Below, in pieces: positions 6,639-57,788 of a DNA stretch of 64,000 bases. Numbering within the stretch: position 1 is the stretch's first letter; each line of letters opens with the position of its first letter. The notes beneath the pieces are model-generated. The model saw only the letters and a program-made list of their open reading frames with translations. It did no database searches and was not told where the DNA came from. This DNA comes from Pirellulales bacterium. GTDB lineage: Bacteria; Planctomycetota; Planctomycetia; Pirellulales; Thermoguttaceae. Both the position numbers and the translations under genes were made by a program. The stretch covers positions 95,684-159,683 of the forward strand of contig CAVQKP010000018.1 of assembly GCA_963713065.1 (NCBI GenBank), read 5' to 3'.

Positions 6639-6960
6639 AGTAGGGTTCCTTGCACATGAAGGGTTCGACAAACCGCGGTAACGACAACTATTCAAAACAG
6701 GTGGTCTGCATGAAGATGGCAGTGCAGGTCTATTGCCTTCTGCCGGAAAATCGACAATTGAATAACCGTTTTCGGTTTCGCGCCTGCACAACCATATTTG
6801 CGGTGAAAGTCATTTTAGTGGCGAAGATGGTCTATTGGCAAGGATTTTCAAGAGGTGGCCTGGCTAGCCCTAACAATATTTCGCCCCCCGGCACTACCTG
6901 GTGTCCCCCTGCCGGCTTGGCTTTTTATATGCATTTGCTTAAATAAGCCTAAAAAGATAA

Positions 6961-6990
6961 GGAACACTAATAACCACTGATATCCACTGA
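6961..6990 (+). repeat. Copy of short repeat family D (GGAACACTAATAACCACTGATATCCAC), ending at the ATG of the downstream ORF
   Basis: Related copies at 3343-3371 (reverse orientation), 48106-48136 and 48166-48184 (reverse); 19-20-mers with 1-2 mismatches. Confidence 0.45.
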
Positions 6991-26957: not shown

Positions 26958-26987
26958 TTCACAACCGTCGTGAAAAACGAATTTCAC

Positions 26988-27090
26988 GCCGCCATGCGCG
27001 GTGCCATGCATGGTGCCATGCCCAAGCTTGTCATGGGCATGTAGGGACTTCCCGCAGGATCTCATGCCCACGACAAGCGTGGGCATGACA
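26988..27090. repeat. REP-like palindromic element cluster (family A). Contains 2x GGTGCCATGC, hairpin CATGCCCA-agcttgtca-TGGGCATG, and the 25-mer CATGCCCACGACAAGCGTGGGCATG
   Basis: The identical 25-mer plus 2x GCATGGCACC recurs at 35574-35618 in the opposite relative orientation. Confidence 0.6.
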
Positions 27091-29935: not shown

Positions 29936-30050
29936 GAGTTCAGGGTTCGGGGAAGAGGGTTCGGGGTTCAGGGAAGAGAGGGTTCAGGGAGCAGGAAGCG
30001 GGATTTATTTCGTTTCAATCCTGAACCCTGAACCCTCTTCCCTGAAACCT
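29936..30050. repeat. 115-bp imperfect palindrome built from GGGTTCA/TGAACCC heptamer units. Lies 4 nt downstream of the stop of the HEAT lipoprotein gene and 10 nt upstream of the cyclase gene start; likely a terminator or regulatory hairpin
   Basis: Left arm ...GGGTTCGGGGTTCAGGGAAGAGAGGGTTCAGGGA..., right arm ...TCCTGAACCCTGAACCCTCTTCCCTGAAACC. The same heptamer occurs at 31247-31290. Confidence 0.5.
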
Positions 30051-30744: not shown

Positions 30745-31246
30745 ATTGATAACTGGCAGTTGCCGTTTTTTAAGTGAATTTCAAGGAGGATACGTAAGTC
30801 GATAAGTTCAATTTTCGAGGAGCTTGGACGAATACAAGGTATGGCGATTATTCATAGCCGGATGTTCGCAGCACCGGTTTAGCCGGCAAACGTTCCAGTC
30901 CCAATTCAGCCTGCCATGGCACCGACTTTAGCCCGAAGGCGGAACAAGGAATTCAGCCATTTTGATCCTCGATCGTCTATTAACCCAAACAGAGATAATC
31001 GAGGCGGGACTATACCATCGGCGTCCATTCCCGCCAAGATGAATCATTAGCAAAACTGCGATAAAATGGTAAAACTAGGTGTCAGGGGCAAGGAAATTTT
31101 CGGCAAGCTAGTGTCTCTTTGTCCTTGGCGGCGAAAAATGCCGCAATATTTGTCCATACTTCCATCACACAATGCCACCCGTTATGATGCTGATTGCATG
31201 GTACGCAGTGCATTCCCTTTTGGATCATGACTAAACTTATCCTCAT

Positions 31247-31290
31247 CTGAACCCTGAACCCTACAACCTGAATCCTGAACCCTAAACCCT
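31247..31290. repeat. TGAACCC heptamer repeats in the 5' leader of the SPFH gene
   Basis: ctgaaccctgaaccctacaacctgaatcctgaaccctaaaccct, about 20 nt before ATG 31310. Confidence 0.5.
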
Positions 31291-31309
31291 TTTCCCAACG
31301 AGGCCAATC

Positions 31310-32692
31310 ATGGGCATCCGCATTGAAGTCCTCCAATATTTCGATCAGTCGAACACCTCGCTTGTGGCCAGAATTCCCCCGGAAGGTTCGGCCGACATCA
31401 AAATCGGCGCACAACTCATCGTCCAGGAGAATCAGGAGGCCGTTTTTTTCTACAACGGCCAGGCGCAGGACACTTTCGAGGCGGGGCGTCATACGCTGGT
31501 GACCGCCAATGTGCCGATCCTTACTCGGTTACTGACGATTCCTTGGGAGAAGTCGCCGTTTCAGGGCCAGGTTTATTTCGTCGGGAAGCAGACGTTTCTC
31601 GACCAGAAGTGGGGAACCCGCGAGCCGATCACGTTCCGCGATCCCGATTTCGGCATGGTGCGGCTGCGGGGGTTCGGCAAATACTCTTTTCGCGTGGCCG
31701 ATGCGAAACTGCTGGTCAACACCCTGGTCGGCACGCAGGGCATCTACACGACCGACTCGGCGACGAACTATTTCCGCGATCTCGTCGTTTCCCGATTGAC
31801 CGACGTGCTGGGCGGGATGAAGAGCGGCGTGCTCGATCTGCCCGGCAAGTACGATCAGGTTGCGCAGGAGACGAAGACCAAGGTCGGCAACGAGTTCGCC
31901 CAATATGGCCTCGAACTGATGGACTTTTTCGTCAATGCAATCTCTCCGCCCGAGGAAGTCCAGAAGGCGATCGACGCCCGGAGTTCGATGGGGGCCGTCG
32001 GCGATTTGAACGCCTATATGAAGTTCCAGGCCGCCAACAGCATGGCCAAGCTCGCCGAGCAGGGCGGCATGGCCGGCGGCGGGATGGGCGCGGGCGCAAT
32101 GGGCATGGGCATGGGCGCGGGTTTCGGCATGATGATGCCCGGCATGATCCAGCAGGCGATGGCCGCTGGGCAGACGGCGACGGTCGCACCGCAAGCTCCG
32201 CCCGCTGCCGCCGGCGTTGCCGGAGCCGCCGCGAGCGCCAAGGTTGCGGGCATGCCCGATTTCTCGCAGCTTGCCCCCGCCGCTCCCGCCGATCCGAAGG
32301 CGATCGTCCGCTCGGTGGCCGCTTCGGCCGGCTACAAGCTCGAAGAGTCGGGCGAGACGATGAAGATCACCGTGCCCATCGGCACGCTGCGGAAGCAGAT
32401 GGTCAACGTCGATTTCGGCCAGAAAGACGCTTCGGGCGCGGCGGTGGTGAATTACTGGTCGATCTGCGGACCTTTTCTGGAGAAGAACGCCGCTTTGCTG
32501 CTGCAATACAACACCACGACGGTCCACGGCGCGTTCGCGGTGAAAAACATCGGCACGACGCCGATGGTCGTCCTGCAAACCAACCAACTTGCCGATAGCC
32601 TCACGCCGCTCGACGTCAGCCGCACGCTCTCGGCCATCGCCTGGCAGGCGGATCAGGTCGAATCGCAGTTGACGGGGGGGGATGAGAATTGA
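31310..32692 (+). CDS. SPFH/Band-7 domain protein (COG4260-like) with a Gly/Met/Ala-rich linker and a C-terminal beta domain
   Basis: N-terminal '[51 protein letters not shown]'. Central low complexity '[28 protein letters not shown]'. Confidence 0.7.
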
Positions 32693-32791
32693 CAAATAAC
32701 CAAATTGTTCCCAGGATCTGCTTGGGAACGCCCTGTTCAGGAGACTCATTTCGCCGCACTGCGAAAAAAGTTTGAAAAGAGAGTAAATGAC

Positions 32792-34553: not shown

Positions 34554-36182
34554 GTGGATTCCCGCACGCTCTCCCTGCTTCTGAACACTCTTTATCTCGC
34601 TGCAGCGACCTGTGTCGTTAGCGTGCCGTTGGGAATTCTATTGGCGGGCCTGCTTTGGCGGACCGATTATCCGGGGCGGAATTTTTGGCGGGCGGTTCTG
34701 GCGGGGATGCTTTTCGTGCCGCTGTTCCTGCAAACGGCGGCCTGGCAGGCGGGATTCGGTTTGCAGGGGTGGTTTACTTTGACATTCCAATCGCCGGCAC
34801 TGGTGGACGGCTGGCGGGGGGCGATTTGGATTCACAGCATGGCCGCTCTGCCGTGGGTGGTTTTGATTGTGGGGCTGGGGCTGCGGCGGAGCGAACCGGA
34901 GTTGGAAGAAGCGGCCTTGTTGGATGCCTCGCCGGGAAAAGTTTTTTTCCACGTGACGCTGAAAAACGCGCTGCCGGCCATCGGCGCGGCCGTGCTCTGG
35001 GTGGCGGTCACCACCGCGGGCGAAATGACCGTCACCGATTTCTTCGGCATCCGCACCTATGCCGAAGAACTCTACACCCAAATCGCCATCGGCCAGGAGC
35101 CGGGCGTGCCGCCCCCTTCGGTCCTCCTGGGCGTCGCCCTGACGGTCGTGCTGATACTCGGCGGCGTGAAATTGCTGAGCCTTTTCATCCCCCGCGAACG
35201 ATCGCTTACCATTTCGCCAAGCCTGACATTTCCGCTGGGCCGCTGGCGCTGGCCGGTTGTTTTCATAACCGGTTTGTTTTTACTGCTTATGCTCGGCGTG
35301 CCGCTGGGCAGCTTGATCTACAAGGCCGGCGTCGAAGTCGGCAAAACCGCAACCGGCTATGAGCGCAGTTTTTCGATCGGCAAGTGTTTGACGATGATTG
35401 TTCGCGCGCCGGAGGATTTTTCCAGAGAATTCGAATGGTCGCTCTCGATCGGCGCCGTTTCGGCAACGACCGCGGTGGTCCTGGGAACTTTACTGGCATG
35501 GTGGAGCCGAACTTCATCCGGCGCCCGGCCCAAGGTTGACGCGGACGGGAGAAAAACTTCGAACACACCGCAACATGCCCACGACAAGCGTGGGCATGGC
35601 ACCCGGCATGGCACCGGGAAGTATTTTTTCAATTTTCAATATGCAATTTGCAACCGCCAATTTGCGATCCTCCTTGTCATCGCCGTCCTTTTTTCCCTGC
35701 CCGGCCCGGTACTGAGCCTGATCGTCATCCACCTGCTCAACCGGCCCGAAGCACCGCCGCTCTGCTGGCTTTACGATCATACGATTCTCGCGCCGGCGTT
35801 AGTGTCGATCTTCAAAGGCCTTCCGGCCACGACGCTGGTGATGTGGTACGCCATGCAATCGATTCCGCGCGAGATATTGGAAAGCGCAACGGTCGATGGG
35901 GCCGGATCGTGGGCGCTGCTATTTCGCATCGCCTTGCCCATGCGCTGGCCGGCGGCCGTCGCGGCGTGGCTGATCGCCCTGGCTCTTTCGCTGGGCGATC
36001 TGGCGGCCAGCATTCTCGTCGTGCCGCCGGGCGTGAGCACCCTCTCGATCTCGATTTTCAGCCTCTTGCACTACGGCGTGGAAGATCGCGTGGCCGGCGT
36101 CTGTCTGGCGCTGCTGATGATCTTCGCCGGCCTGGCGTGGGCCACGCTTCTGGTCGCTCGCCGCATGGTAAAATCGCGATAA
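34554..36182 (+). CDS. ABC transporter permease, two-domain fused type (FbpB/ThiP-like)
   Basis: 542 aa, 2x six-TM permease halves with 'EAA'-type loops. The cytoplasmic linker carries an in-frame REP-like insertion (QHAHDKRGHGTRHGTGK). Confidence 0.8.
   Translation: MDSRTLSLLLNTLYLAAATCVVSVPLGILLAGLLWRTDYPGRNFWRAVLAGMLFVPLFLQTAAWQAGFGLQGWFTLTFQSPALVDGWRGAIWIHSMAALPWVVLIVGLGLRRSEPELEEAALLDASPGKVFFHVTLKNALPAIGAAVLWVAVTTAGEMTVTDFFGIRTYAEELYTQIAIGQEPGVPPPSVLLGVALTVVLILGGVKLLSLFIPRERSLTISPSLTFPLGRWRWPVVFITGLFLLLMLGVPLGSLIYKAGVEVGKTATGYERSFSIGKCLTMIVRAPEDFSREFEWSLSIGAVSATTAVVLGTLLAWWSRTSSGARPKVDADGRKTSNTPQHAHDKRGHGTRHGTGKYFFNFQYAICNRQFAILLVIAVLFSLPGPVLSLIVIHLLNRPEAPPLCWLYDHTILAPALVSIFKGLPATTLVMWYAMQSIPREILESATVDGAGSWALLFRIALPMRWPAAVAAWLIALALSLGDLAASILVVPPGVSTLSISIFSLLHYGVEDRVAGVCLALLMIFAGLAWATLLVARRMVKSR
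35574..35618. repeat. REP-like element copy (family A): CATGCCCACGACAAGCGTGGGCATG + 2x GCATGGCACC, inserted in-frame (15 codons) in the permease inter-domain linker
   Basis: The 25-mer is identical to 27063-27087. 35574 is codon-aligned with the permease frame. Confidence 0.6.
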
Positions 36183-44963: not shown

Positions 44964-45217
44964 GGCATTTTATGACCATCCATGCACGGTAGATTAGCAA
45001 AAATCTTGGCAACTGGCAAGCAATCGGATTTATTGAATGCCGGATTGCGGCGATGCACTGCGTGCGGGCGTCAACTCCTCGTCGCCGTTGGCTCCGGGCG
45101 AAACATCCGTATTTCCGAGAAATTAGCGCCCTGCTCTTGCGTCAATATCCCGCCAGCGTTATGGTAGTGCTAGCGGCGGTTTTTGACTTTTTCGAGAGCG
45201 CGAACGCAACTCCCATC

Positions 45218-47999
45218 ATGCCCATATCTTGGAACGAAATCCGCCAGAACGCCATTCATTTTGCCCGCGAGTGGTCCGGCACGCGCAGCGAAAGCGCGGA
45301 AAAACAAACCTTTTGGAACCAGTTCTTCGAAGTGTTCGGCAGCCGGCGGCGAACTGTCGCGAATTTTGAAGAGCAAGTACGGAATCTTCATGGAAACTAC
45401 GATCATATTGATCTTTTCTGGCCCGGAATGTTGTTGGTCGAGCACAAAAGTTTTGGCAAAGATTTGGGTGAAGCAGAATTACAGGCGTCCCGTTATATTG
45501 GCAATCTTATTAGTGCTGGGAGAGATAAGGAATCACCCCGCTATATAATTGTTTCAGATTTTGCACGGATTGAACTCATAGATCTTGAACCGGAAGACCC
45601 AAATAAGAAACAGATCAAAGGCGGTTATAAGATTGAATTTCCGCTGTCGGAATTTCATAAATATATCCATGAATTTGCTTTTATTCCGGGCTATAAACAA
45701 CACCGGTTCGAAGATCAGGACCCGATCAATCTTGAAGCCGTCCGCATTATGGACGATCTTCACGACTCGCTTGCCAATGGCGGTTATAAAGGGCATGAAT
45801 TAGAGCGTTTTTTAGTGCGAGTGCTGTTCTGCCTTTTTGCCGAAGATACAGGCATCTTCGAACGAGAAGCATTTCATCTTTATTTGGAAAACTGCACGAA
45901 GCTAGACGGCTCCGATCTTGGAATTCACTTGGCTCGATTGTTTGAAGTCCTCAATACTCCAGAGGAAAAACGCCAGAAAAATCTGAATGAGACGTTGGCG
46001 GCATTTCCTTATGTAAATGGTGATCTTTTCTCCGAACAATTGGGCTTCGCCGATTTCAACCGAGATATGAGGAATAATTTGCTTGCATGCACTCGTTTTG
46101 ACTGGTCGAGTATTTCGCCCGCCATTTTCGGCTCGCTGTTTCAAGGCATCATGGAATCGCGCGAGCGTCGGCAGATCGGCGCGCATTACACGAGCGAACG
46201 GGACATCTTGAAGGTGATTCGCTCGCTGTTTCTCGACGACCTCCGGGCGGAGTTCGAGAAGATCAAGACGAACAAGAACCAACTCAAGCAGTTCCATCAA
46301 AAGCTGGCGGGCCTAAAATTCCTCGACCCGGCCTGCGGCTGCGGAAATTTCTTGGTGATCGCCTACCGGGAACTGCGCTTGTTGGAAATCGAAGTCCTTA
46401 CCGCGTTGCATTCCGGGCAGAAGCAGTTGGATATCCGCAATCTGTCGCTGGTCGATGTGGACGCCTTTTATGGCATCGAGATCAGCGAGTGGCCCGCACG
46501 GATCGCGGAAGTGGCGATGTGGCTGATGGACCACCAGATGAACGTCAAGCTTTCGGAAACGTTCGGGCAGTATTTCGTCCGCCTGCCGCTGAAGAAATCG
46601 CCCACCATCGTGCTCGGCAATGCGCTGCGGCTCGATTGGAAGAAATTCTGCCGCCGGAAAATTGCAGTTACGTATTAGGGAATCCGCCGTTCGTGGGTAA
46701 ACATCTTCTTACTCAAGAACAAAGTGCGGATATGGACTATGTTTGGCGTAAAACGAATGGAGCCGGATTTCTCGATTATGTAACAGGATGGTATAGAAAA
46801 GCAGCTATATATATCTTAGGAACCAATATAATTGTTGGCTTCGTTTCAACAAATTCCATTACTCAAGGTGAACAAGTTGGAATCCTGTGGGTTGAATTAT
46901 TTCATAAACAAGGAATTAAAATTCATTTTGCACATAGGACATTTTCTTGGGATAGTGAAGCCAGAGGAAAAGCTCATGTTCATGTTGTGATTATCGGATT
47001 TGCCAATTTTGACCCTGAAAATAAACGTCTTTACGATTATGAATCAGATGGCGAAAAGTCACTGTAACTAGGCCAAGAAACATAAGTCCTTATTTAATCG
47101 AAGGCTCCGATATCGCTTTACCAATTCGTCGAAATGCTCTATGCAATGTTCCAGCTATTATCAATGGAAATAAACCAGCAGATGGTGGATTTCTCATTAT
47201 TGAAGATGAAGATAAACAAGGATTTCTTAAAGAAAACCCAGGCATTAAACCATATATCCGACAATTCCTTTGTGCTGAGGAATATTTAAATGGAAAAAAT
47301 AGATGGGTTTTATGGCTAGAAAATGTACCGCCAAAAATCATTCGCGAGAATCCTGGTGTACGGCAAAGAATTGAAGAAGTTCGGAAATTTCGATTGAAGA
47401 GCAAGAAAGAATCGACACGGAGAAGAGCCGAACGGCCTACTTTGTTTGATCAACTTCGCCAGCCAAAAAGCGAATATATGTTAATACCACGTCATTCTTC
47501 GGAAACTCGACGTTATATACCATTTGGATATTTCAGTCCCGAAATAATTATTGGTGATTCCTGCACAGCAATCCCTCATGCATCACTTTATCATTTTGGC
47601 ATTTTATCATCCACGATGCATATGGCATGGGTTCGACAAATTTGCGGTCGATTGAAATCGGATTACCGATATTCCAACAAACTCGTTTACAACAACTATC
47701 CCTGGCCGGAATCGCCGACGAAGAAGCAGAAAACGGCGGTCGAGCAGGCGGCACAAGGGGTGTTGGATGCGCGGGAAGAGTTCTTGTCGCAAGGGGCAAC
47801 GTTGGCCGATCTTTACGATCCGGTTGCGATGCCGCCGAAATTGGTCAAGGCCCATGCCGCGTTGGATCGGGCGGTGGACCGCTGCTACCGCGCGCAGCCC
47901 TTCACCAGCGAGCGGCAGCGCGTCGAGTTTCTCTTCGCCCTCTACGAAAAACTCACCACGCCCTTAATCGCCGAAGCAGGAAAGAAACGGAAAAAGTAG
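45218..47999 (+). CDS. MmeI-family single-chain Type IIL restriction-modification enzyme (N-terminal PD-ExK endonuclease + gamma-class N6-adenine MTase + target recognition domain); two frameshifts
   Basis: 'MPISWNEIRQNAIHFAREW', nuclease 'DLFWPGMLLVEHKSFGKDL', 'GAHYTSE', 'FLDPACGCGNFL', 'GNPPFVG', 'SITQGEQV', C-terminal 'YRYSNKLVYNNYPWP...LADLYDPVAMPPKLVKAH'. Pieces 45053-46678, 46489-47067 and 47090-47999. Confidence 0.8.
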
Positions 48000-48027: not shown

Positions 48028-48059
48028 ATGCCCTCACCCCGGCCCCTCTCCCAAAGGGA
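48028..48059. repeat. Repeat family C copy (ATGCCCTCACCCCGGCCCCTCTCCCAAAGGG) just downstream of the MmeI-like gene
   Basis: Near-identical at 49238-49276. A diverged copy at 55656-55700 lies inside a CDS. Confidence 0.5.
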
Positions 48060-48105
48060 AAGAAGAGTTTTATAGGGCCAAACCATGCGTCACCATATTA
48101 TTTAA

Positions 48106-48184
48106 GGAACACTAATCTCCACTAACACCCACTCACAAATCTTTATTGTGCCTATTAGCGGCTGTCAGTGGTTATTAGCGTTCC
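48106..48184. repeat. Imperfect inverted repeat of family D (GGAACACTAATCTCCACTA ... CAGTGGTTATTAGCGTTCC), about 40-bp spacer; MITE-like or regulatory palindrome between convergent genes
   Basis: The right arm's reverse complement GGAACGCTAATAACCACTG matches 6961-6979 with 1 mismatch. Confidence 0.45.
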
Positions 48185-48220
48185 TTCTGTTTTCGAATCC
48201 GACGAACTTTCGAAGTCGCA

Positions 48221-48799
48221 CTAACCAATTGCTTCTTTCCGCGCTCTTTCGAGCAGATCATCCACGTGAAGCTCCACGGCCCATTTTTTCAAATAGTCCC
48301 CGTCGAGATTTTCGCCTTGGACCTTCATCACCCCAAGAACATCGCTCCATTGGCGCTCGGAGATTTCATCGCCGAGGCGATACCATTCGAGCTTGCTGAG
48401 GATCGTATCTTCCGCGGAAGCGACATAAAATATTTTCGAAGAATCCTCAAGGATCTTTCGGGAGTTTTTCCGTTCGAAAGCCAGACGGCTGTAGGCTGAC
48501 GCCTTCGAAGCGAAAACATCCACCTTGAACATCGTTGCGAGGTGAATCAGATTGAAACATGCCCTTCTTCGAATGGCGTCCGTAATCGTATTTACGTTGA
48601 GATAATACGCTTTGCCCAACATCTCCGCCAAAGGAGCTGCATGCTCGAACCTGAGATCGGCAACCAAATCAGCATCCGCGGTGCTTCGAATCACGCCATG
48701 AGCGGAGCTTGCCACGGAACCGCCAATATAATAGGGAATTCCAAGTTTTTCGAAAACCTCGACAACAGGAACAACAGCCTGGATCATGTCAAGAATCAT
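48221..48799 (-). CDS. Nucleotidyltransferase-fold (Pol-beta superfamily, MNT-like) protein, 192 aa
   Basis: 'YIGGSVASSAHGVIRSTADADLVADL' is the hG[GS]...D.D minimal NTase motif. Its start overlaps the stop of the upstream small ORF (ATGA). Confidence 0.55.
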   Translation of the reverse strand: MILDMIQAVVPVVEVFEKLGIPYYIGGSVASSAHGVIRSTADADLVADLRFEHAAPLAEMLGKAYYLNVNTITDAIRRRACFNLIHLATMFKVDVFASKASAYSRLAFERKNSRKILEDSSKIFYVASAEDTILSKLEWYRLGDEISERQWSDVLGVMKVQGENLDGDYLKKWAVELHVDDLLERARKEAIG

Positions 48800-49044
48800 G
48801 CGTGCCCTTTTATTAAGTAAACGCGTACATCATCCGCTAAATGTTTGCCGTAAGTGATTTCAACCCAGCGGAGGCCGACCTCTTCAACGCTCATGCCCGG
48901 ATTCGCGTCAGCAATGCCTTGACGGGAAAACGCGATGAGCGTCGCAGTCAGTGATCGCATCAAGGAAATGCGTTTGGCAACGCTCGCTTGGCGTATAAGC
49001 TCCAATTGCACTTTTTCAGCATCAGGATGAGTATCGGTAAGCAT
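48796..49044 (-). CDS. Small protein (82 aa) translationally coupled to the NTase gene; putative cognate partner or antitoxin-like
   Basis: ATG 49044 with AAGGA 9 nt upstream. 4-nt overlap with the NTase start. No recognisable domain. Confidence 0.4.
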   Translation of the reverse strand: MLTDTHPDAEKVQLELIRQASVAKRISLMRSLTATLIAFSRQGIADANPGMSVEEVGLRWVEITYGKHLADDVRVYLIKGHA

Positions 49045-49115
49045 GGGAATATCCTTATAATCAATCGGGCGGCATATTCTTATTATTGCAAACGGCTGCC
49101 ATATCAACAAGACAA

Positions 49116-49139
49116 GCCCCCGCCGTTTTCGGCGGGGGC
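49116..49139 (-). terminator. Perfect 10-bp GC hairpin GCCCCCGCCG-tttt-CGGCGGGGGC followed (minus strand) by a U-rich tract; likely terminator of the lipoprotein operon
   Basis: Read directly. Lies about 145 nt downstream of the stop of the 49284-50636 gene on the minus strand. Confidence 0.5.
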
Positions 49140-49177
49140 CTAGAGGATTAATTTGATTTCAAGTTAATTGGTGATGC

Positions 49178-49276
49178 TGCGACGCCGGAGCAAAAGCGAA
49201 ATTGTGTTCCCATGCCGGAGCATGGGAACAAATAGAAATGCCCTCACCCCTAGCCCCTCTCCCAAAGGGCGAGGGG
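49178..49276. repeat. Composite repeat: family B (TGCGACGCCGGAGCAAAAGCGAAATTGTGTTCCCATGCCGGAGCATGGGAACA, 49178-49230) followed by family C (49238-49276)
   Basis: The family B paralog is at 56815-56865, about 85% identical. Both contain GTTCCCAYG-ccggagc-RTGGGAAC hairpins. Confidence 0.55.
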
Positions 49277-49283
49277 AAAATAT

Positions 49284-50636
49284 TTACCGCACGCGGCAGC
49301 AGAAGCGGATTACGCCGCCTTGGCCGGCTTCGAGCGGATCTTTCAGCTCGCAGCGGATGACCGAGGAATCGCCTTCGTTGGGCTGGGTGCTGAAGGCGGC
49401 TTCGCGGCTGCACTGGGCGCTGCCGGGGACGTATTCCAACCGCGTGCTGAGGCTGTCGAGGATCGTCACGTTGCCGATCGTTTCGCTGCCCAGATTGTCG
49501 AACCGCAAGGTGAACCAGACTTCCTCGCCGGGATTGGCGAACGCCGTCGAGGCGACCTTGATGAGCCGCAGCGCCGGCTTGCCTTCGAATTTCACGTTAT
49601 AGACCGATTCCAACTTTTCGTCCTGCACGGCCGTCATCGGTCCTTGCAAGTTGATGATCGCCTGCACCATTTGCGTTTCATTCCACGAGACGGCCGCCTG
49701 GGCGCTTTTGGCCAGCCGCAGCGACTCGGCGCCTTCGAACTTGCCCGTGCGTATGACGGCGACGTTCTCGTAGGGCTTGTAGTCGTTTTGGAAGCTCCGC
49801 GGGCCGACGGCCGTGGAAATCGCGCCGTCGCCTTGCCTGGTCACGAAGGCCTGCGTCGGCCGGGCGCCGATTTCGTCGCCAAGTTGGATGTTCTTCGTCG
49901 TCGAGCCGACCAGTTGCGTGTGCGCCGGCTTGGACAGGGCGACGTCCTCCGTCACGCCGCGAGCCGCCACTTTCTGCTCGTTGGCCATGAGTCCGACCAC
50001 CTGTCGAACCGCGCCGAAACGGGGGCTGTAGATATAGACTTCATTGCTGGGCTCGACGATGCGGCGGCCGTCGAGCGTGTCGTAATGCGCGACGGCGTCT
50101 TCCATCTCGACTCCGTAAACCTGCCATTCACGTCCCACGCCGGCCGGCATGTGCCGATCGCCGCCGTCGCGGAGATATTCATCCCGCGGCCACGGCTGGC
50201 GAATGGCGTCGGGCGACCACGGCGGATAGGCCGCATAGGGCAGCGGCGTGCCCTGCTCCATGCACGGCGCACCCAGCGGCGGGCAATCGTCGCGCGGAAT
50301 GGGCGGCATCGGGCCTTCATAAGCGGTCTGCGCGATATCCGAACTCGCCTCGGCCTCGCCAGCCTCCGCTTGGTCGCCGCGATCGGCTTGTCCGACCGAG
50401 TTTCCCGTGCTACCGGACGAGCCGGCAGCGGCGTCTAATGCCGGTTGCTCGTCGAGCGATCGGTCGGCGACGACAATGTAAGCTTGTTCGCCATCGTTGC
50501 CCAGTTTCATGCCGGCGGTTCTGCCCGACGGCCCGCGGCAAGAGCAGAGGATCGTCATCCCCAGGGCGATGCCGAGGAGCGTTGCGGGAATGCGGCGGGC
50601 GAACATCTTCGCGATCATGGGATGAGGGACTTTCAT
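49284..50636 (-). CDS. Lipoprotein with C-terminal DUF11-like beta-sandwich domain
   Basis: 'MKVPHPMIAKMFARRIPATLLGIALGMTILCSC' (lipobox-like LCSC). C-terminal 'EEVWFTLRFDNLGSETIGNVTILDSLSTRLEYVPGS' is DUF11-like. Its ATG overlaps the upstream gene's stop (ATGA). Confidence 0.55.
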   Translation of the reverse strand: MKVPHPMIAKMFARRIPATLLGIALGMTILCSCRGPSGRTAGMKLGNDGEQAYIVVADRSLDEQPALDAAAGSSGSTGNSVGQADRGDQAEAGEAEASSDIAQTAYEGPMPPIPRDDCPPLGAPCMEQGTPLPYAAYPPWSPDAIRQPWPRDEYLRDGGDRHMPAGVGREWQVYGVEMEDAVAHYDTLDGRRIVEPSNEVYIYSPRFGAVRQVVGLMANEQKVAARGVTEDVALSKPAHTQLVGSTTKNIQLGDEIGARPTQAFVTRQGDGAISTAVGPRSFQNDYKPYENVAVIRTGKFEGAESLRLAKSAQAAVSWNETQMVQAIINLQGPMTAVQDEKLESVYNVKFEGKPALRLIKVASTAFANPGEEVWFTLRFDNLGSETIGNVTILDSLSTRLEYVPGSAQCSREAAFSTQPNEGDSSVIRCELKDPLEAGQGGVIRFCCRVR

Positions 50637-51590
50637 CGTCGCGGTCCCTCCTTGGCCGATTGGTCGAACATGGCGGGGATGATTTCCGAATTCGGCGGCG
50701 GGGGGAGAATTTTCACCGCGGGCTTGGCGGGGGCTTTCGACTCGAACTTGAATAACGCGCGGATTTCCGGTTTGGGATCGGTTTTCGCGCGGGGCTTGAC
50801 GGCTTTCTTCGCGGCCGGCGCGGCGGCCGTTTTTGCCGCGGATTTTGCCGTTGATTTCGCGGCTTGGACGGGATGCGGCTTTTCGACCGGCGGCAGGATT
50901 GGGATAATCGACGAACGGCGGACAGCCGAAGAAAAATTGCGGATCGGGACCGGCGCCGGAGTCCGGCAAACGGCCGCCCAACCGCAGAATCGCCACCGGC
51001 CGGCCCAAGGAATCGGCGACGGCCAGCGGATCTTGACCCGGCGCGGCTTCGAACCAGTTCTGGTGGTTGGGATCCTCGCGAACCGGCAAGGCGTCGCGGG
51101 GATCTTCGAGATAAATCACGCGGGTGACGAACTTTCCCGCGAGGGCCAGTTTGAGATCAGCGTCGGATAGTTCGACGGGGATCGAAAAACGATTTTCCTG
51201 TCCCAGCGGCGTGAACAGGCGGTCGATGACTTCGATGGTGGGAAAAACTTCCCGCCCTTCGGCCAGCGGAATGCCGCTCACTTGGAGCCGATAAACGCCG
51301 CCGATCAGCAGTCCGGCCTTGCGCAGTCCTTTCCGCGGTTCCTCGAATTGGCCATCGACGGCAAGGGCGATCATCGCCCCGTCGGGCGCTTTGATTTCGA
51401 CGGGCTGGTAATAGCCCGCCAATGGTCCGCCCCGCTGGAGTTGCCGGCTTCCAATCGCTCCCGGGGGCATCGCCCCTTGGTGATAATAGTGGACGCCGGG
51501 TGCTTGAGCCAAGCCGAAGGAGCTTGGGATCAGCAGCCACGCCGCCACGATCGCCAATTTGCCGGCAACTCGTCGCATTGTCATCCTCAT
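50633..51590 (-). CDS. Secreted protein or lipoprotein, paralog of 51713-52906, with a Lys/Ala/Pro-rich C-terminal tail (one frameshift)
   Basis: Signal peptide 'MRMTMRRVAGKLAIVAAWLLIPSSFGLAQA'. Shared core 'YRLQVSGIPLAEGREVFPTIEV...FVTRVIYLEDP...AILRLGG' with the paralog. The tail '...AAKKAVKPRAKTDPKPEIRALFKFESKAPAKPAVKILPPPP...' reads in the +1 frame and ends at a TGA overlapping the next ATG. Confidence 0.5.
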
Positions 51591-51712
51591 TTCAGACGGC
51601 CGAGCGGGGCCGTGGACCATGATCGCGCGTAGATGGAAGGGTTGACGAGGATCGAACAGCACGCAGGGCGGGACTTTGCTTCGCTTGTCCCACCCTGCTT
51701 TTTTACAATTTT

Positions 51713-54923: not shown

Positions 54924-56611
54924 CTATTGCCCTGTAGCTCGAACATCAAGAATTCGCCCGGTGGGGCGGCTGCGGTCGAGAGGGACTGCTTGGGGAGAGT
55001 CGTAGATCGCGTGGTTGCCGGCTTCATCGACAACTTCGAGGCGGAGATAGACCAGCGGGGGAATCGAACTGTCGAGCGACCAAATGTAACGGCCGGTGTT
55101 TTCCAGGTTCGAGGCGAAAGGCGTAAATTGGCCGCCGGGTTGGGCACTATAGGAGAGCGTGACCGGCTTTTCGGCGAGCATCTTGTCGGAGACTTCCCAA
55201 CCGATAACCAGCTTGTCCTCGTTTTCGCCGCTGCCGAATTCGGCCGAGGTGATTTTTGCCGCGGGCCGAGTCAGGTCGATGCCGATCCAGACCGACGGTT
55301 TGTCGCCGCTTTTGGGAGGAGGATCGCCCAGGCCGGCGCCGCTGGTGACAACGATCCGGAAACCGTACATTCCTTCCTCCTCGACGCGCACCGACATTGG
55401 GCTGCGGTTATCGCTATCGATGCCGTAACTCCGCCAGGTGCGGCCGCCGTCCCGAGTGCCGAACAACTCGACCTTGCTCACGCCCGACGGGCCGACGGAT
55501 TGCAGGTCATAATCCAACTCGAAACTCCGGGAGTTGACCATCTGCGGTTTTTCATTGGGAGGAAGGTAGGCCAGGAAGGGATTGTTCAGCAATGCGGAAG
55601 CCACGTCCGACGAATACTTGCTGCCGATTTTCGGATTCGCGCCGGCCGAGACGGCCCTCACCCCCGGTCCCTCTCCCTTCGAGAAAGGGGAGTCCTGTTT
55701 CGCCGCATCTTTCGCAAAATCGGCTGATGTGCTTCCAGTGGGGCCGAGTTTGACTTGGGCATGGGCGATGCCCTTGTTGCCGGCCTTGTCGCTCGCTTCG
55801 GCGCGGATGACGACCTCCCGCGCGCCTGCGCCGGCCGCCAGGTGGCCTCGCCGGATTGCGTGGTTTCGGTGTTCGTGAGATCCTTGTCGCTCACGGCGAC
55901 CGGTTGCCACGCCCCAAAGTCCGACGTGCGATATTGCAGCGAGAGCGAATCCGGCTTCAGATGCGGATCGAAGATTTGCCATTGTGCGGTGACCTGCCCG
56001 CCAGGCCCGGACTCGGCCGATAGCAGCACGCTGGGCGGTTTCGTGTCGATGATTACGATCACCGCCGGGCTGGAAACGGTCGGCGGCTGAAACTTGCCGG
56101 CCCGATCGAGCGTGCGCGTGGCGAACCAGTATTCGCCGTCGTTGGCCGCACGGAAGGGAATCCGCGGCTGATTGGCGTTCACCCGGCTGTAGAAGTTCCA
56201 GTTCGCACCGCGATCGTGCGAAACGAACATCTGCACTTCGACAATCGAGCTGCTGTTCCGCGGGTTATTTTGCGGTGACGCCTCGCTGCGGACGGGAAGG
56301 GAAAAATATGTTTGCCGCGTGAGCATCCCCTTCGGCAGGGCAGGGACCGAGCCGGCGCCGGAATCCGTTGCCTGGTTTTGCGCGGGCGGAAGATTGTTCG
56401 CCGGCGGTTGAGAATCGCGGATTACCGGTCTGAGATTGACCGCCGCAGGAGCGTTCTCGGTGGCGGCCCGGTCGGTCGCCTCCTCGGCGGCCGGTTTCCA
56501 AGCCGGCTGGACGATCGTCTCGGGCGTATTAACGGTGTTTTGCGGCGCGTTCAGTTCGAGCTGCCCGCTCGACATCATCATCAGCCACGAAGCAACAACC
56601 GCCGGCCACAT
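54924..56611 (-). CDS. Secreted protein with two tandem Ig-like/beta-sandwich repeat modules (one frameshift near 55.7-55.9 kb); carries a family-C repeat in-frame
   Basis: Signal 'MWPAVVASWLMMMSSGQL'. Two homologous modules (…DRGANWNFYSRVNANQ…DTKPP… and …TRDGGRTWRSYGIDSD…DLTRP…). 'FSKGEGPGVRA' is encoded by the repeat at 55656-55700. Confidence 0.5.
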
Positions 56612-56814
56612 GGCAAAGCTTCTCCAATTTGCGCAATCGATACTCTCTTGTGTAAAATGCCGTATTCATCGTATCGGCGCGTCGGGGATTTGACTTGAGA
56701 GAGCGAATGCGTTTAACGAAGGAACAGATAAAAGTGATAAGCGATGAAGCTGACCGTTCCGCTGATCTTGCATGCTAACCGGTAGTTCGATTTTTCGCAT
56801 CGGTTGGCGATTCT

Positions 56815-56865
56815 CCGACGCCGGAGCGTCGGGGGATTGTGTTCCCACGCCGGAGCGGGGGAACA
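56815..56865. repeat. Repeat family B copy (TCCGACGCCGGAGCGTCGGGGGATTGTGTTCCCACGCCGGAGCGGGGGAACA) between two minus-strand genes
   Basis: Paralog of 49178-49230. Contains a perfect CGACGC-cgga-GCGTCG hairpin. Confidence 0.5.
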
Positions 56866-56870
56866 TGAGG

Positions 56871-57788
56871 TTATTCCATAACGTCGAAATCTCCTTCGGG
56901 CGTGGTTTGCTCACCGCCGTCGATGGTGGTCATGGCTTTGAGGTTGTCGGCGTCGGTGCCTTTAGGGAGGCTGCGTACGCTGCCGTCGCAGAAGATGGCG
57001 TTCACCGCGGAAGGATGATCGGAACTGATTTCGGCGCCGCTGTTGTCGCAAAGGTCGAAGCTCATGGTTTCGGCATCGAGATCGCGCGGTTCGAGCCAGT
57101 TGATGTTGCCGCCGACGTTTTCCACGACCATGATGGTGCCGGCGAGATTGTCGGATATTTCGGCTTTGGTTCGACCCATGGGGCCGGTGCTGATCGCGTG
57201 GGGACCGACGAGCATTGCATAGTTCGTGATGTTCGTCGCGCTGTTCGAGGCGCCCGGGCAGCGATAGACGGCGGGCATCCGATTGGCCAGCATGATGTTG
57301 TGCGGGCTGTCCCAGGGTTCGTGCATGTTGTATTGATCGTAAAGCGCTTGTTCGCCCAGGTAAGGCAGCAGCAACACCCGCCAACTGTGCATCGGCTTGC
57401 CGTTTTTGTCGGCCACAAACGCGGGCGGATAATGGCCGTTTTTGTCGTAGTAGGCTTGGATTGCGAAACTGATTTGCCGCATGTTGTTGCTGCAATTCGC
57501 CCTCCGCGCCGCCGCGCGGCCTGCCTGGACGGCGGGAAGCAGGAGGCTGGTGAGCATGCCGCCGCAAAAAAGGATCACCGGGATGGAGATCGCCAAAATG
57601 ATGAGGATGGTGGAGGCCGTGCTCCGTGGTTTTTTTGGTGGAAACTGGTCGTATTGCAATGGCGCCATGCCCAGCGGCGGGACAGTGATCGTCTGTCCGC
57701 AGCGGGCGCAAGGCCCACTCTGGCCGGCGTATTGTTCCGCCACATTGGTGGCATTTCCGCAATGAGGGCAGATGAAATGAATGGCCAT
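56871..57788 (-). CDS. DUF1559 (H-X9-DG) domain protein with N-terminal zinc ribbon and TM segment (Planctomycetes-type prepilin-like family)
   Basis: 'FICPHCGNATNV...CARCGQ' zinc ribbon. TM 'ILIILAISIPVILFCGGML'. 'MRQISFAIQAYYDKNGHYPPAF'. H-X9-DG 'HPSAVNAIFCDGSVRSL'. Confidence 0.7.
   Translation of the reverse strand: MAIHFICPHCGNATNVAEQYAGQSGPCARCGQTITVPPLGMAPLQYDQFPPKKPRSTASTILIILAISIPVILFCGGMLTSLLLPAVQAGRAAARRANCSNNMRQISFAIQAYYDKNGHYPPAFVADKNGKPMHSWRVLLLPYLGEQALYDQYNMHEPWDSPHNIMLANRMPAVYRCPGASNSATNITNYAMLVGPHAISTGPMGRTKAEISDNLAGTIMVVENVGGNINWLEPRDLDAETMSFDLCDNSGAEISSDHPSAVNAIFCDGSVRSLPKGTDADNLKAMTTIDGGEQTTPEGDFDVME

What the first reader, a model, noticed from the sequence alone, without database searches (positions are those of the whole stretch)
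49178..49276. Repeat families B and C at gene ends; a third family-C copy is embedded in-frame in a secreted protein
Family B is about 52 bp and contains the hairpins CGACGC-cgga-GCGTCG and GTTCCCAYG-ccggagc-RTGGGAAC. It occurs at 49178-49230 and 56815-56865, each just downstream of a minus-strand gene's stop (49284, 56871).

Family C (ATGCCCTCACCCC[GT][AG]GCCCCTCTCCCAAAGGG...) occurs at 48028-48059 (after the MmeI-like gene) and at 49238-49276 (fused to the B copy). A diverged copy at 55656-55700 sits in-frame inside the Ig-repeat protein, where it encodes 'FSKGEGPGVRA'.

These are compact, hairpin-forming, gene-end-associated units of the REP/BIME type, and they have not been catalogued for this lineage as far as I can tell from the sequence alone.
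Basis: seen in the sequence. Interest (0 to 1): 0.55.

Follow-up and report, generated by a model that had tools for sequence, protein, structure and literature searches.

The report
REP-type hairpins and BoxC triplex repeats
The two repeat families are real but belong to known kinds: family B is a REP-type hairpin repeat whose own tyrosine transposase (RAYT) gene sits between two B copies in other genomes, and family C is the BoxC/PIT "intrastrand triplex" repeat long known from E. coli.

Summary
Family B has two clear copies (49178-49232, 56815-56867) and a third degenerate one I found (32701-32769). Family C has one intact copy (49238-49277) and two decayed ones (48028-48066, and 55654-55700 inside a gene). 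None is expected by chance.

Family B is a two-hairpin module: HP1 GAxGC-loop-GCx'TC, about 10 nt of spacer, then HP2 GTTCCCAxGC-loop-GCx'TGGGAAC. The HP2 pattern recurs in at least 119 loci from at least 8 phyla, often as inverted dimers. In 6 of 6 loci examined, a 176-178 aa REP-associated tyrosine transposase (RAYT) gene lies exactly between a B(-) and a B(+) module. These RAYTs have HuH NHLH, WQ and YIHxNP motifs, fitting subclass 2.6 / group 5. B is therefore a REP/REPIN family with a cognate RAYT. The window copies are solitary relics just after stop codons, and one is absent at the orthologous site of a related Pirellulales genome.

Family C matches the BoxC/PIT/TMECO G/C-rich intrastrand-triplex motif almost block for block. 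The in-gene copy is an old in-frame insertion in a variable linker, shared by several orthologues.

Both are new members of known kinds. Interest is moderate to low. The cross-phylum near-identity and the coupled covariation between the two B hairpins are the only unusual points.

The parts
56815..56867 (+). Family B copy 2, the best preserved. HP1 is CCGACGC-CGGA-GCGTCGG (56815-56832), the spacer is GGGATTGT, HP2 is GTTCCCACGC-CGGA-GCGGGGGAAC (56841-56864), and the tail is ATG. It lies 6 nt from the stop (56871-56873) of the minus-strand DUF1559 gene.
   Evidence: (60.3 bits, E 3.9e-14). The module is absent at the orthologous site in L120.
49178..49232 (+). Family B copy 1. HP1 is decayed (CGACGCCGGAGCAAAAGCG). 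HP2 is intact: GTTCCCATGC-CGGA-GCATGGGAAC (49206-49229).
   Evidence: 48.8 bits, E 3.9e-11.
32701..32769 (-). Family B copy 3, degenerate. HP2 is GTTCCCAGGATCTGCTTGGGAAC (32707-32729). It lies 14 nt after the stop (32690-32692) of the + strand SPFH gene 31310-32692.
   Evidence: (18.1 bits, E 0.004).
49238..49277 (-). Family C intact copy, a BoxC/PIT/TMECO-type intrastrand-triplex motif. On the minus strand it reads CCCCTCGCCC-TTT-GGGAGAGGGG-CTA-GGGGTGAGGG. It lies between the stop at 49284 and B copy 1.
   Evidence: compared with Table 1 of PMC4666352.
48028..48066 (+). Family C decayed copy. It has a 1-nt deletion and its third block has degenerated to GGGAAAGAAG. It lies 28 nt after the stop of the broken MmeI-like gene.
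   Evidence: (fold z only -0.9).
55654..55700 (-). Family C decayed copy inside the coding sequence of the Ig-like secreted protein, in a variable linker. It encodes DSPFSKGEGPGVRAV.
   Evidence: Orthologues P0001, P0003, P0004, P0005 and P0008 keep related peptides. P0007 and P0009 lack it.
49113..49142 (-). Intrinsic-terminator-like hairpin (13-bp stem followed by a T-rich tail) downstream of the C+B composite. If it is used, C and B lie inside the 3' UTR of gene 49284-51662.
49284..51662 (-). DUF11-like secreted protein gene. Its stop codon precedes the C+B composite.
56871..57788 (-). DUF1559 (SBP_bac_10) gene. Its stop codon precedes B copy 2.
   Evidence: The orthologous arrangement is seen in L120.
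54924..56611 (-). Gene for the Ig-like secreted protein that carries the in-frame C copy. It is frameshifted in the window near 55835-55850.

Best explanation
Family B is a REP-type (repetitive extragenic palindrome) family belonging to a REP-RAYT system.

Anatomy and origin. The unit is a bipartite ssDNA hairpin module (HP1, about 10 nt of spacer, then HP2). In many genomes it occurs as inverted dimers, B(-)B(+), with the HP2 hairpins outermost. In 6 of 6 loci examined the same arrangement encloses the gene for a small HUH/Y1 REP-associated tyrosine transposase of the subclass 2.6 / group 5 type.

Inferred mechanism, by analogy with E. coli TnpA-REP and IS200/IS605. The RAYT binds the folded hairpins on single-stranded DNA, cuts at their foot, and so copies or moves the dimers. 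Dimers then decay into solitary modules.

The window copies. The three window copies are such solitary relics, and no RAYT gene is in the window. They persist where insertions are tolerated, directly after stop codons. There they are co-transcribed as stable 3' stem-loops. These may secondarily protect the mRNA 3' end, or, when only 6 nt from the stop, interfere with termination of translation.

Family C is the BoxC/PIT/TMECO G/C-rich motif. It has three 10-nt blocks (C-rich, G-rich, G-rich) that can fold back into a hairpin or an intrastrand purine-motif triplex on single-stranded DNA. Published work links it to local instability and has found no promoter or terminator activity. One intact and two decayed copies are present. 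One of them is an ancient in-frame insertion tolerated in a protein linker.

What is shown and what is inferred. Shown: sequence identity, structure and covariation, the RAYT association in other genomes, presence/absence at one orthologous site, and the match to the BoxC pattern. Inferred: the mobilisation chemistry, any RNA-level effect, and the presence of a RAYT in the source genome.
For: Family B:
- The HP2 pattern is found in at least 119 loci of at least 8 phyla, including isolates of Methylobacter and Pseudomonas.
- Both helices are supported by covariation: 93% of cells paired against 83% in shuffles, and 112 double changes against 40.
- The variable base pair of HP1 and that of HP2 are the same in 55 of 55 cleanly scored copies (Fisher p = 2e-14).
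- 60 of 128 seeds have an inverted partner 50-100 nt upstream. Almost none have one downstream.
- A conserved 176-178 aa ORF lies between B(-) and B(+) in L007, L074 and L089, which come from three phyla.
- That ORF matches NCBIfam NF047646 'REP-associated tyrosine transposase' with E 2e-22 to 3.5e-22. One sequence matches Pfam Y1_Tnp.
- A profile of the clade hits only PDB 4ER8, TnpArep.
- The motifs NHLH at position 60, WQ at 118, Y[IL]HxNP at 139 and SS at 159 fit subclass 2.6 in Table 1 of PMC6006769.
- Independent test: three loci chosen by protein alone (P0123, P0131, P0202) all show B(-)-gene-B(+).
- A B-type REP is listed for the D. alkenivorans RAYT in PMC6006769 Table S1.
- The orthologous intergenic region in L120 lacks B but keeps the adjacent 75-nt conserved block.
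- Gene-end bias: 59 of 113 seeds have a convergent ORF stop within 100 nt of the HP2 end. For singletons the split is 31 against 16 (p = 0.04).

Family C:
- The 49241-49275 copy matches the TMECO pattern. It is almost identical in its blocks and first loop to the E. coli 'A mm' type.
- An idealised copy finds the motif in 4975 of 5426 E. coli genomes.
- It also occurs in loci of Planctomycetota, a cyanobacterium, Gammaproteobacteria and Thermodesulfobacteriota.
- Orthologues share the encoded peptide.
Against: - No RAYT gene is in the 64-kb window. The source genome could not be retrieved. So the link between these particular copies and a resident RAYT is an inference.
- B lacks the GT[AG]G tetranucleotide of classical REPs.
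- The NCBIfam scores (78.8 and 79.6 bits) fall just under the curated cut-off of 80.
- Only singlets, not dimers, occur in the window.
- No transposition event was observed. The single presence/absence case could equally be a deletion.
Counts and orientation statistics therefore come from a biased sample.
- ORF-based gene calls in the related loci are crude.
- For C, published work found no triplex formation in vivo and no defined function.
Confidence: 0.8

Rival explanations
1. B hairpins are primarily functional RNA elements, either 3'-UTR stabilisers or factor-dependent terminators. On this view they are kept by selection at gene ends, and their spread by a transposase is incidental.
For: - All three window copies lie 6-55 nt after a stop codon in the same orientation relative to the gene.
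- In the wider sample the HP2 end faces a stop codon about twice as often as the opposite arrangement.
- The predicted RNA hairpins are very stable.
- In mRNA sense the pattern-selected loop is UCCG, a UNCG-type tetraloop.
Against: - Nearly half of the copies are inverted dimers that present both orientations.
- Copies flanking RAYT genes have GAA, AAA or GGAA loops, so the UNCG loop is not general.
- No U tract follows the hairpins, and a separate terminator-like hairpin follows the 49178 composite.
- The element is absent from the orthologous 3' UTR in L120.
- HP1 of copy 1 has decayed.
- The gene-end bias is also what purifying selection against insertions in promoters would produce.
Confidence: 0.25
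2. B modules are terminal inverted repeats of a conventional MITE, mobilised by a DDE transposase. On this view the small ORF between them is unrelated cargo.
For: The (-)(+) dimers with conserved outer ends CTCGTTCCC...GGGAACGAG look like terminal inverted repeats. Some enclose 70-100 nt of unrelated sequence.
Against: - The only gene repeatedly enclosed is the RAYT, in 6 of 6 loci.
- No DDE transposase family recurs near the copies.
- Each 'terminal repeat' is itself a pair of hairpins with compensatory changes, as expected for ssDNA recognition.
- No target-site duplication is evident.
Confidence: 0.04
3. The GGA-containing loops of the two hairpins, about 29 nt apart, form a dual CsrA/RsmA binding site or decoy.
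For: In the + orientation, HP1 and HP2 loops are mostly NGGA. From my own knowledge, the spacing is within the range a CsrA dimer can bridge.
Against: - The predominant transcribed orientation carries the complementary UCC loops.
- Many copies have AGA, AAA or GAA loops without GGA.
- No evidence of separate transcription was obtained.
Confidence: 0.02
4. The similarities are chance or compositional artefacts of a G+C-rich genome.
For: The units are short. Two of the three C copies and one of the three B copies are degenerate.
Against: - Zero matches in 100 shuffles for every pattern tested.
- Model scores for the two good B copies have E values of 1e-11 to 1e-14.
- Hundreds of near-identical copies occur elsewhere.
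Confidence: 0.01

Closest known systems
REP/REPIN-RAYT systems (REPtrons) of Enterobacteria and Pseudomonas: E. coli TnpA-REP (PDB 4ER8), and the REPINs of Bertels & Rainey
   Same: - Short, hairpin-forming, mostly extragenic repeats.
- Frequent inverted dimers.
- A single small HUH/Y1 transposase gene bracketed by its cognate repeats.
- Repeats concentrated near gene 3' ends, and decay into singlets.
   Different: - B lacks the 5' GT[AG]G tag.
- The unit is bipartite: two hairpins whose variable base pair co-varies.
- The RAYT belongs to the subclass 2.6 / group 5 type, not group 2 or 3.
- The same HP2 sequence recurs almost base for base in at least 8 phyla. Classical REP families are genus-specific.
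'Atypical secondary structures' flanking TnpAY1 subclass 2.6 genes, and the REP listed for Desulfatibacillum alkenivorans ACL04004.1 (Quentin et al. 2018, PMC6006769, Table S1)
   Same: - The D. alkenivorans entry, GTATGCATTCCCACGCAAAGCATGGGAACGAG, is a B-type HP2 with its GAG tail.
- The RAYTs found here share the length and motifs of subclass 2.6.
- That subclass is described as lacking GT[AG]G.
   Different: - That paper reports subclass 2.6 mostly in Bacteroidetes.
- It lists the D. alkenivorans protein as unassigned.
- It does not describe the two-hairpin module, its dimers or its cross-phylum spread.
- I could not compare ACL04004.1 directly with the RAYTs found here.
BoxC / PIT elements / TMECO intrastrand-triplex motif (Hoyne/Maher 2000; Holder et al. 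2015, PMC4666352)
   Same: - The same three-block architecture, and nearly the same sequence: window CCCCTCGCCC-TTT-GGGAGAGGGG-CTA-GGGGTGAGGG against E. coli CCCTCGCCCC-TTT-GGGGAGAGGG-TTA-GGGTGAGGGG.
- Both carry the same G mismatch in the C-rich block.
- Intergenic location, with inverted pairs in some genomes.
   Different: - The blocks are 10 nt rather than 9 nt, so the published regular expression needs its second loop relaxed.
- The host is a Planctomycete; the TMECO census was proteobacterial.
- Two of the three window copies are decayed, and one is inside a gene.
Rickettsia palindromic elements (RPEs) and the intragenic REP units noted by Di Nocera et al. 2013 (PMC3733652)
   Same: A small palindromic repeat inserted in frame in a protein-coding gene and tolerated as extra peptide.
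   Different: The inserted element here is a BoxC-type motif, not an RPE or a tagged REP. There is only one case, in a low-complexity linker, and it is old enough to be shared and partly eroded among orthologues.

Membership tests
REP/REPIN-RAYT system | A short hairpin-forming unit repeated at many, mostly extragenic, sites | tested here: met
   - There are 3 copies in the window, all intergenic.
- 128 instances occur in 119 loci. Only 13 of these lie in a frame open for at least 80 codons on both sides.
- Folding z scores are -4 to -5, and covariation supports both helices.
REP/REPIN-RAYT system | The cognate RAYT gene is flanked by the same repeats | tested here: met
   6 of 6 RAYT loci in other genomes show B(-)-gene-B(+): L007, L074, L089, L126, L127 and L128. 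This could not be tested in the source genome, because no RAYT is in the window and the genome was not retrievable.
REP/REPIN-RAYT system | The associated protein is an HUH/Y1 (IS200-like) nuclease of the RAYT type | tested here: met
   - NF047646 match with E 2e-22 to 3.5e-22, at 78.8 and 79.6 bits, just under the cut-off of 80.
- PF01797 match at 23.2 bits, above the cut-off of 23, for one sequence.
- A profile hits only 4ER8 TnpArep, E 2.3e-5.
- HuH and Y motifs are present.
- Many homologues are named RayT by their sources.
REP/REPIN-RAYT system | A conserved GT[AG]G tetranucleotide at the 5' foot of the hairpin (classical REPs) | tested here: not met
   The foot of HP2 is TGC, TGT or TGG, and on the other strand CTC, CTG or ATC. 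According to PMC6006769, subclass 2.6 and class 3 REPs also lack this tag. The missing tag therefore excludes only the classical GTAG super-family.
REP/REPIN-RAYT system | Inverted dimers (REPINs) as the presumed mobile unit | tested here: met
   60 of 128 seeds have an inverted partner, typically 50-100 nt away, always arranged (-)(+). This is not met inside the window, where all copies are singlets.
REP/REPIN-RAYT system | High copy number in the host genome | not testable with these tools
   Only 64 kb of the source genome is available, with 3 copies. Related Planctomycete loci hold 2-12 copies per 14-21 kb near the RAYT gene.
REP/REPIN-RAYT system | Evidence of mobility (insertion or excision polymorphism) | tested here: inconclusive
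   B copy 2 is absent at the orthologous DUF1559/Ig-like intergenic site of L120, while the neighbouring 75-nt block is conserved. This is one case, and gain cannot be told from loss.
TnpAY1 subclass 2.6 (Quentin 2018) = RAYT group 5 (Bertels 2017) | About 179 aa; HuH NH[LIV]H; WQ; Y motif YIH[QN]NP; HuH-Y distance about 82 aa; SS motif after Y; atypical flanking hairpins without GT[AG]G | tested here: met
   - Length is 176-178 aa.
- NHLH is at position 60 and WQ at 118.
- The Y motif is YIHDNP, YLHMNP or YIHQNP at 139, so two of the three deviate by one residue from the published pattern.
- The HuH-Y distance is 79 aa, and SS is at 159 (compared with Table 1 as read).
- No phylogenetic placement was made.
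GTAG- or CGTC-tagged REP super-families (Di Nocera 2013) | An unpaired GTAG or CGTC tag at one end; for CGTC, an 8-9 bp stem that starts with A/T pairs and a CCA tail | tested here: not met
   B has no such tag, a 10-12 bp G/C-rich stem, and a GAG, CAG, GAT or AAG tail.
BIME (E. coli bacterial interspersed mosaic element) | Alternating-orientation REPs of two types joined by defined linker motifs, with IHF and gyrase sites | tested here: inconclusive
   In the pattern-selected dimers, the partner most often carries a TGGA loop where the seed carries CGGA. Arrays of alternating copies exist in L022. No defined linker motifs or protein sites were tested. The window has only a B+C juxtaposition.
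BoxC / PIT / TMECO intrastrand-triplex motif | Sequence pattern CCCTCNCCC-N3-6-GGGNGAGGG-N3-GGGNGAGGG | tested here: met
   49241-49275(-) matches when the second gap is allowed to be 3-5 nt. Read in a 10-nt block register, the loops are TTT and CTA, both 3 nt. The copies at 48028 and 55654 do not match, because their third block has decayed.
BoxC / PIT / TMECO intrastrand-triplex motif | The third block can form purine-motif triads (G*G:C, A*A:T, T*A:T) antiparallel to the purine strand of the hairpin | tested here: met
   By inspection of the 49238-49277 sequence, GGGGTGAGGG read antiparallel against GGGAGAGGGG gives only G*G, A*A and T*A triads. One G.A mismatch lies in the Watson-Crick arm, as in the E. 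coli 'A mm' type.
BoxC / PIT / TMECO intrastrand-triplex motif | Actual triplex formation by the single strand | not testable with these tools
   This needs CD or NMR on the oligonucleotide. It has been published for the E. coli sequence only (PMC4666352).
Intrinsic (Rho-independent) terminator | A G+C-rich hairpin followed directly by a U tract | tested here: not met
   No T run follows B or C on the transcribed strand. A separate terminator-like site lies at 49142-49113.
Rfam RNA families | A match to any curated covariance model | tested here: not met
   There is no hit at gathering threshold in the window. Relaxed searches gave only chance-level hits.

The most novel reading that the evidence does not exclude
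The B module and its small RAYT form one REPtron lineage that has moved horizontally among at least 8 bacterial phyla while keeping HP2 almost base-for-base identical. Its transposase reads a bipartite signal: two hairpins whose apical base pair must match. The evidence is that the variable pair is the same in HP1 and HP2 in 55 of 55 copies, even when different subtypes share a genome. If true, this would be a recognition mode not described for RAYTs. It would also be a counter-example to the view that REPIN-RAYT systems are strictly vertically inherited.
Probability: 0.35. Interest if true: 0.55.

Novelty: new member of a known kind. Interest (0 to 1): 0.35.

Why it matters
For annotation, the short ORF-like stretches and the 'extra' peptide in the Ig-like protein are explained as repeat insertions. 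The intergenic hairpins should be masked or labelled as REP and BoxC elements rather than read as regulatory RNAs.

For biology, the work ties a concrete and easily searched DNA module to the poorly characterised RAYT subclass 2.6 / group 5, and shows that module in Planctomycetota, Desulfobacterota, Methylococcales and other groups. This gives a defined substrate for biochemical work on that enzyme class. It also gives a marker for studying how REP-RAYT systems spread. The coupling between the two hairpins is a directly testable clue to how the enzyme recognises its DNA.

The BoxC result extends a motif best known from E. coli and cyanobacteria to a Planctomycete, and gives a natural example of its survival inside a coding region.

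Tried and rejected
- **Rfam.** I searched at gathering threshold and at relaxed thresholds. Nothing relevant was found. There are no tRNA or tmRNA genes in the window.
- **Literature search by sequence strings.** This returned only primer coincidences.
- **GTAG/CGTC REP catalogue (PMC3733652).** B does not fit either super-family.
- **Intrinsic terminator.** Rejected because there is no U tract. A separate terminator-like hairpin exists at 49113-49142.
- **CsrA decoy and UNCG-tetraloop ideas.** Both are weakened because RAYT-flanking copies carry GAA, AAA or GGAA loops, and because the transcribed strand mostly carries the complement.
- **attC sites and CRISPR repeats.** I considered these from memory. 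I rejected them because the core sites do not match and no arrays exist.
- **Phage or plasmid vector.** Only 3 hits were found in 2.9 million viral contigs, and 2 weak plasmid hits.
- **Neighbour-gene enrichment.** The largest shared clusters were generic: sensor kinases, ABC ATPases, DUF1559 and RraA. Restricting to ORFs within 400 nt of a hairpin exposed the RAYT cluster.
- **Retrieving the source genome.** This failed. The window proteins are not on record or carry no accession.
- **DNA for the closest orthologue contigs (P0001, P0004, P0005).** Not available.
- **Single-sequence search of the RAYT against the PDB.** This found nothing. A profile was needed.
- **Greedy ORF calling in the related loci.** It overcalled 'inside ORF' cases. 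I replaced it with stop-codon-anchored distances.
Full report
**1. The observation**

Reading the sequence and running pattern searches confirm both families.

Family B. The core GTGTTCCCAYGCCGGAGCRKGGGAAC occurs exactly twice, at 49204-49229 and 56839-56864, both on the + strand. None is expected in 100 dinucleotide-preserving shuffles.

Family C. The core CCCTCACCC-N(1-8)-CCCTCTCCC occurs three times, at 48031, 49241 and 55655, again with none expected.

Position relative to genes. Both B copies follow minus-strand stop codons. The DUF1559 gene 56871-57788 ends 6 nt from hairpin 2. The DUF11-like gene 49284-51662 is followed first by C and then by B. Predicted folding of the B regions is far better than for shuffled sequence, with z = -4.0 to -4.9.

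- The first hairpin of B is intact only in the 56815 copy.
- The C copies at 48028 and 55654 are eroded and no longer fold significantly.
- The protein that carries the in-frame C copy is frameshifted in this window. It appears as ORF 55658-56611 plus ORF 54924-55982, whereas homologues are 540-590 aa.

**2. Family B outside the window**

The hosts include:
- many families of Planctomycetota;
- Desulfobacterota;
- Methylococcales and other Gammaproteobacteria, including isolates of Methylobacter and Pseudomonas;
- Betaproteobacteria, Bacteriovoracaceae, Verrucomicrobiota, Bacteroidota, Ignavibacteria, Anaerolineae and a cyanobacterium.

Aligning the flanks shows a common module:
- HP1: a 5-8 bp stem around GAxGC-loop-GCx'TC.
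- A spacer of 8-13 nt, most often 10.
- HP2: GTTCCCAxGC-loop-GCx'TGGGAAC.
- A short tail: GAG, CAG, GAT or AAG.

Compensatory changes support both helices. 93% of cells are paired against 83% in shuffles, and 112 cells show double changes against 40. Sliding the register collapses pairing to 25-44%.

The variable pair x/x' is the same in HP1 and HP2 in every cleanly scored copy: 37 A-type, 17 C-type and 1 G-type (Fisher p = 2e-14). A-type and C-type copies occur together in one Methylobacter genome (L042 and L044).

A covariance model built from 77 copies recovers both window copies with E values of 1e-11 to 1e-14. It also finds a third, degenerate copy at 32701-32769(-). That copy lies 14 nt after the stop of the SPFH gene, in the same gene-relative orientation.

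**3. What B is**

The model finds about 90 further copies in the fetched loci. Most are inverted partners next to a seed.
- 60 of 128 seeds have such a partner, typically 50-100 nt upstream. Almost none have one downstream.
- The dimer is therefore always (-)(+), with the HP1 hairpins inside and the HP2 hairpins at the outer ends.

Clustering all ORFs of the loci gave only generic families. Restricting to ORFs within 400 nt of a hairpin exposed one small family present in three loci from three phyla. In each of those loci the gene lies exactly between a B(-) and a B(+) module.

Evidence that these proteins are REP-associated tyrosine transposases (RAYTs):
- They are 176-178 aa and 48-55% identical to one another.
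- Two were scanned against NCBIfam. Both match NF047646 'REP-associated tyrosine transposase' with E 2e-22 to 3.5e-22, though the scores sit just under the curated cut-off.
- One passes Pfam Y1_Tnp.
- A profile of the clade hits a single PDB entry, E. coli TnpArep 4ER8.
- Their length and their NHLH, WQ, Y[IL]HxNP and SS motifs fit TnpAY1 subclass 2.6 of Quentin et al. 2018, which equals RAYT group 5 of Bertels et al. 2017. That paper describes the subclass as flanked by 'atypical secondary structures' without GT[AG]G, with further copies elsewhere in the genome.
- Its Table S1 lists GTATGCATTCCCACGCAAAGCATGGGAACGAG, a B-type HP2, as the REP of a Desulfatibacillum alkenivorans RAYT.

As an independent test I chose three homologues by protein alone. 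The clade has at least 1339 members, many named RayT by their sources. I fetched the three loci, and all three show B(-) immediately upstream and B(+) immediately downstream of the gene. More B copies are scattered in the flanks. That makes 6 of 6 loci.

B is therefore a REP/REPIN-type family with a cognate RAYT.

**4. The window copies in that light**

No RAYT is encoded in the window. All three copies are singlets, and one has a decayed HP1.

The orthologous DUF1559/Ig-like intergenic region of a related Pirellulales genome (L120; the protein is 71% identical in BLAST) has 24 nt where the window has 195 nt including B. The adjacent 75-nt block upstream of the Ig-like gene is conserved. This is a presence/absence polymorphism, though its direction is unknown.

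Across the sample, 59 of 113 seeds have the stop of a convergent ORF of at least 150 codons within 100 nt of the HP2 end. For singletons the split is 31 against 16 for the opposite arrangement (p = 0.04).

This fits two readings that do not exclude each other:
- insertions survive only where they do no harm;
- the co-transcribed stem-loop is useful at the mRNA 3' end.

I favour the first as the primary cause, for four reasons. Dimers present both strands. The loops are not conserved: CGGA in the sample by construction, but GAA, AAA or GGAA next to RAYT genes. No U tract follows the hairpins. A separate terminator-like hairpin (49142-49113) follows the C+B composite.

**5. Family C**

A search of E. 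coli genomes with the 49236-49280 sequence, idealised by one base in the hairpin, found the motif in 4975 of 5426 genomes. One locus showed an inverted pair.

The literature identifies this as BoxC, also called PIT elements or TMECO. It is a G/C-rich motif of three blocks that forms a very stable intrastrand triplex in vitro. It occurs thousands of times in proteobacterial genomes. It is associated with local genomic instability. In earlier tests cited by Holder et al. 2015 it showed no promoter or terminator activity (PMC4666352).

The intact window copy reads CCCCTCGCCC-TTT-GGGAGAGGGG-CTA-GGGGTGAGGG on the minus strand. The common E. coli type reads CCCTCGCCCC-TTT-GGGGAGAGGG-TTA-GGGTGAGGGG. 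Both carry the same mismatch in the C-rich arm. Related copies occur in fetched loci from Planctomycetota, a cyanobacterium, Gammaproteobacteria and Thermodesulfobacteriota.

The intragenic copy lies in a variable linker between the repeated domains of the Ig-like protein:
- Orthologues at 61-72% alignment identity keep recognisable versions, for example P0001 'DSPLPLGD...GEGPGARA' and P0004 'SPLLSGEGPGVKA'.
- P0007 and P0009 lack it.
- More distant homologues have unrelated linkers.

It is therefore an old in-frame insertion now drifting as coding sequence, comparable to RPEs in Rickettsia.

C orientation relative to transcription is not consistent. Two copies present the G-rich strand in the mRNA and one presents the C-rich strand.

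**6. Verdict**

Both families are real, and both belong to known kinds. The REP interpretation is right for B and now rests on the defining REP-RAYT association. C is BoxC rather than REP/BIME. 'Uncatalogued' is true only in the narrow sense that neither family is in Rfam and that I found no description of either for Planctomycetes.

Two features go beyond the ordinary. One is the near-identity of HP2 across phyla. The other is the strict coupling of the apical pair between the two hairpins. Together they suggest a horizontally spreading REPtron with bipartite recognition. This is unproven.

Limits of this work:
- the source genome was not available;
- the genome scan was truncated, and its pattern fixed the HP2 loop;
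- gene calls in the related loci are approximate;
- no experiment bears on mobility or on RNA-level effects.

Noticed in passing
window 27018-27040, 27064-27086, 35575-35597: A third hairpin repeat family, ATGCCCAxG-loop-CxTGGGCAT. The copies at 27064 and 35575 are identical 23-mers. It has the same CCCAxG...CxTGGG core as HP2 of family B. The two copies at 27018-27086 follow the stop of gene 24946-26973 and together fold at -52.8 kcal/mol. It is probably another REP-like family.
   Followed up: partly
window 48103-48186, and 6958-6998: A long imperfect hairpin, TAAGGAACACTAATCTCCACTAAC...GTGGTTATTAGCGTTCCTT (-30 kcal/mol), lies just after the decayed C copy. One arm recurs at 6958-6988 at 84% identity (D10, 20, 100).
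   Followed up: partly
window 30010-30050 and 31243-31304; also L015 and L083: Runs of TGAACCC/CTGAACCCT-like short repeats. The same motif lies directly beside B hairpins in two Planctomycetota loci (D5, 18).
   Followed up: no
window 45053-47999: The MmeI-like type IIL restriction-modification gene is split into three ORFs: 45053-46678, 46489-47067 and 47394-47999. All MmeI domains are present across the pieces. It is either a pseudogene or affected by sequencing errors.
   Followed up: partly
window about 55835-55850: A frameshift in a GGCGGCCGGCG run splits the Ig-like secreted protein gene. Intact orthologues are 540-590 aa. The upstream frame happens to terminate inside the C copy, at 55658-55660.
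   Followed up: partly
window 56612-56690, compared with L120 9925-10000: An approximately 75-nt block directly upstream of the Ig-like gene start (CCGATACGATGAATACGGCATT...GGAGAAGCTTTGCC-ATG) is conserved with a genome whose protein is only 71% identical. It is likely a promoter or 5'-leader element.
   Followed up: no
window 49113-49142 (minus strand): A strong terminator-like hairpin, GGCCCCCGCCG-AAAA-CGGCGGGGGC, followed by a T-rich tail. It lies between the C+B composite and the next gene.
   Followed up: no
window 15376-15555: A tandem array of about five 30-nt units, CGCCGGTTGATCCGGTCCGGCTGTCGCTTC (D1). It is unrelated to families B and C.
   Followed up: no
L036 2666-2800, L048 1745-1830, L064, L001, L026: Tandem duplications of only the 3' half of HP2, (GCCGGAGCTTGGGAACCAG)n, directly after a full hairpin. 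This looks like slippage or abortive copying at the hairpin.
   Followed up: no
L022 7170-7620: An array of approximately 210-bp units in a Desulfobacterales genome. Each unit is B(-), about 70 nt, then B(+).
   Followed up: no
window 49238-49277 with 49178-49232; L068 5459-5636; L121 21452-21622: BoxC-type and B-type elements lie within 7-66 nt of each other in three unrelated genomes. This suggests shared permissive sites, or insertion of one element next to the other.
   Followed up: partly
window 48221-49110 (minus strand): Two small overlapping ORFs (192 aa and 104 aa) lie between the C and B regions. They have a toxin-antitoxin-like layout but no Pfam match.
   Followed up: no
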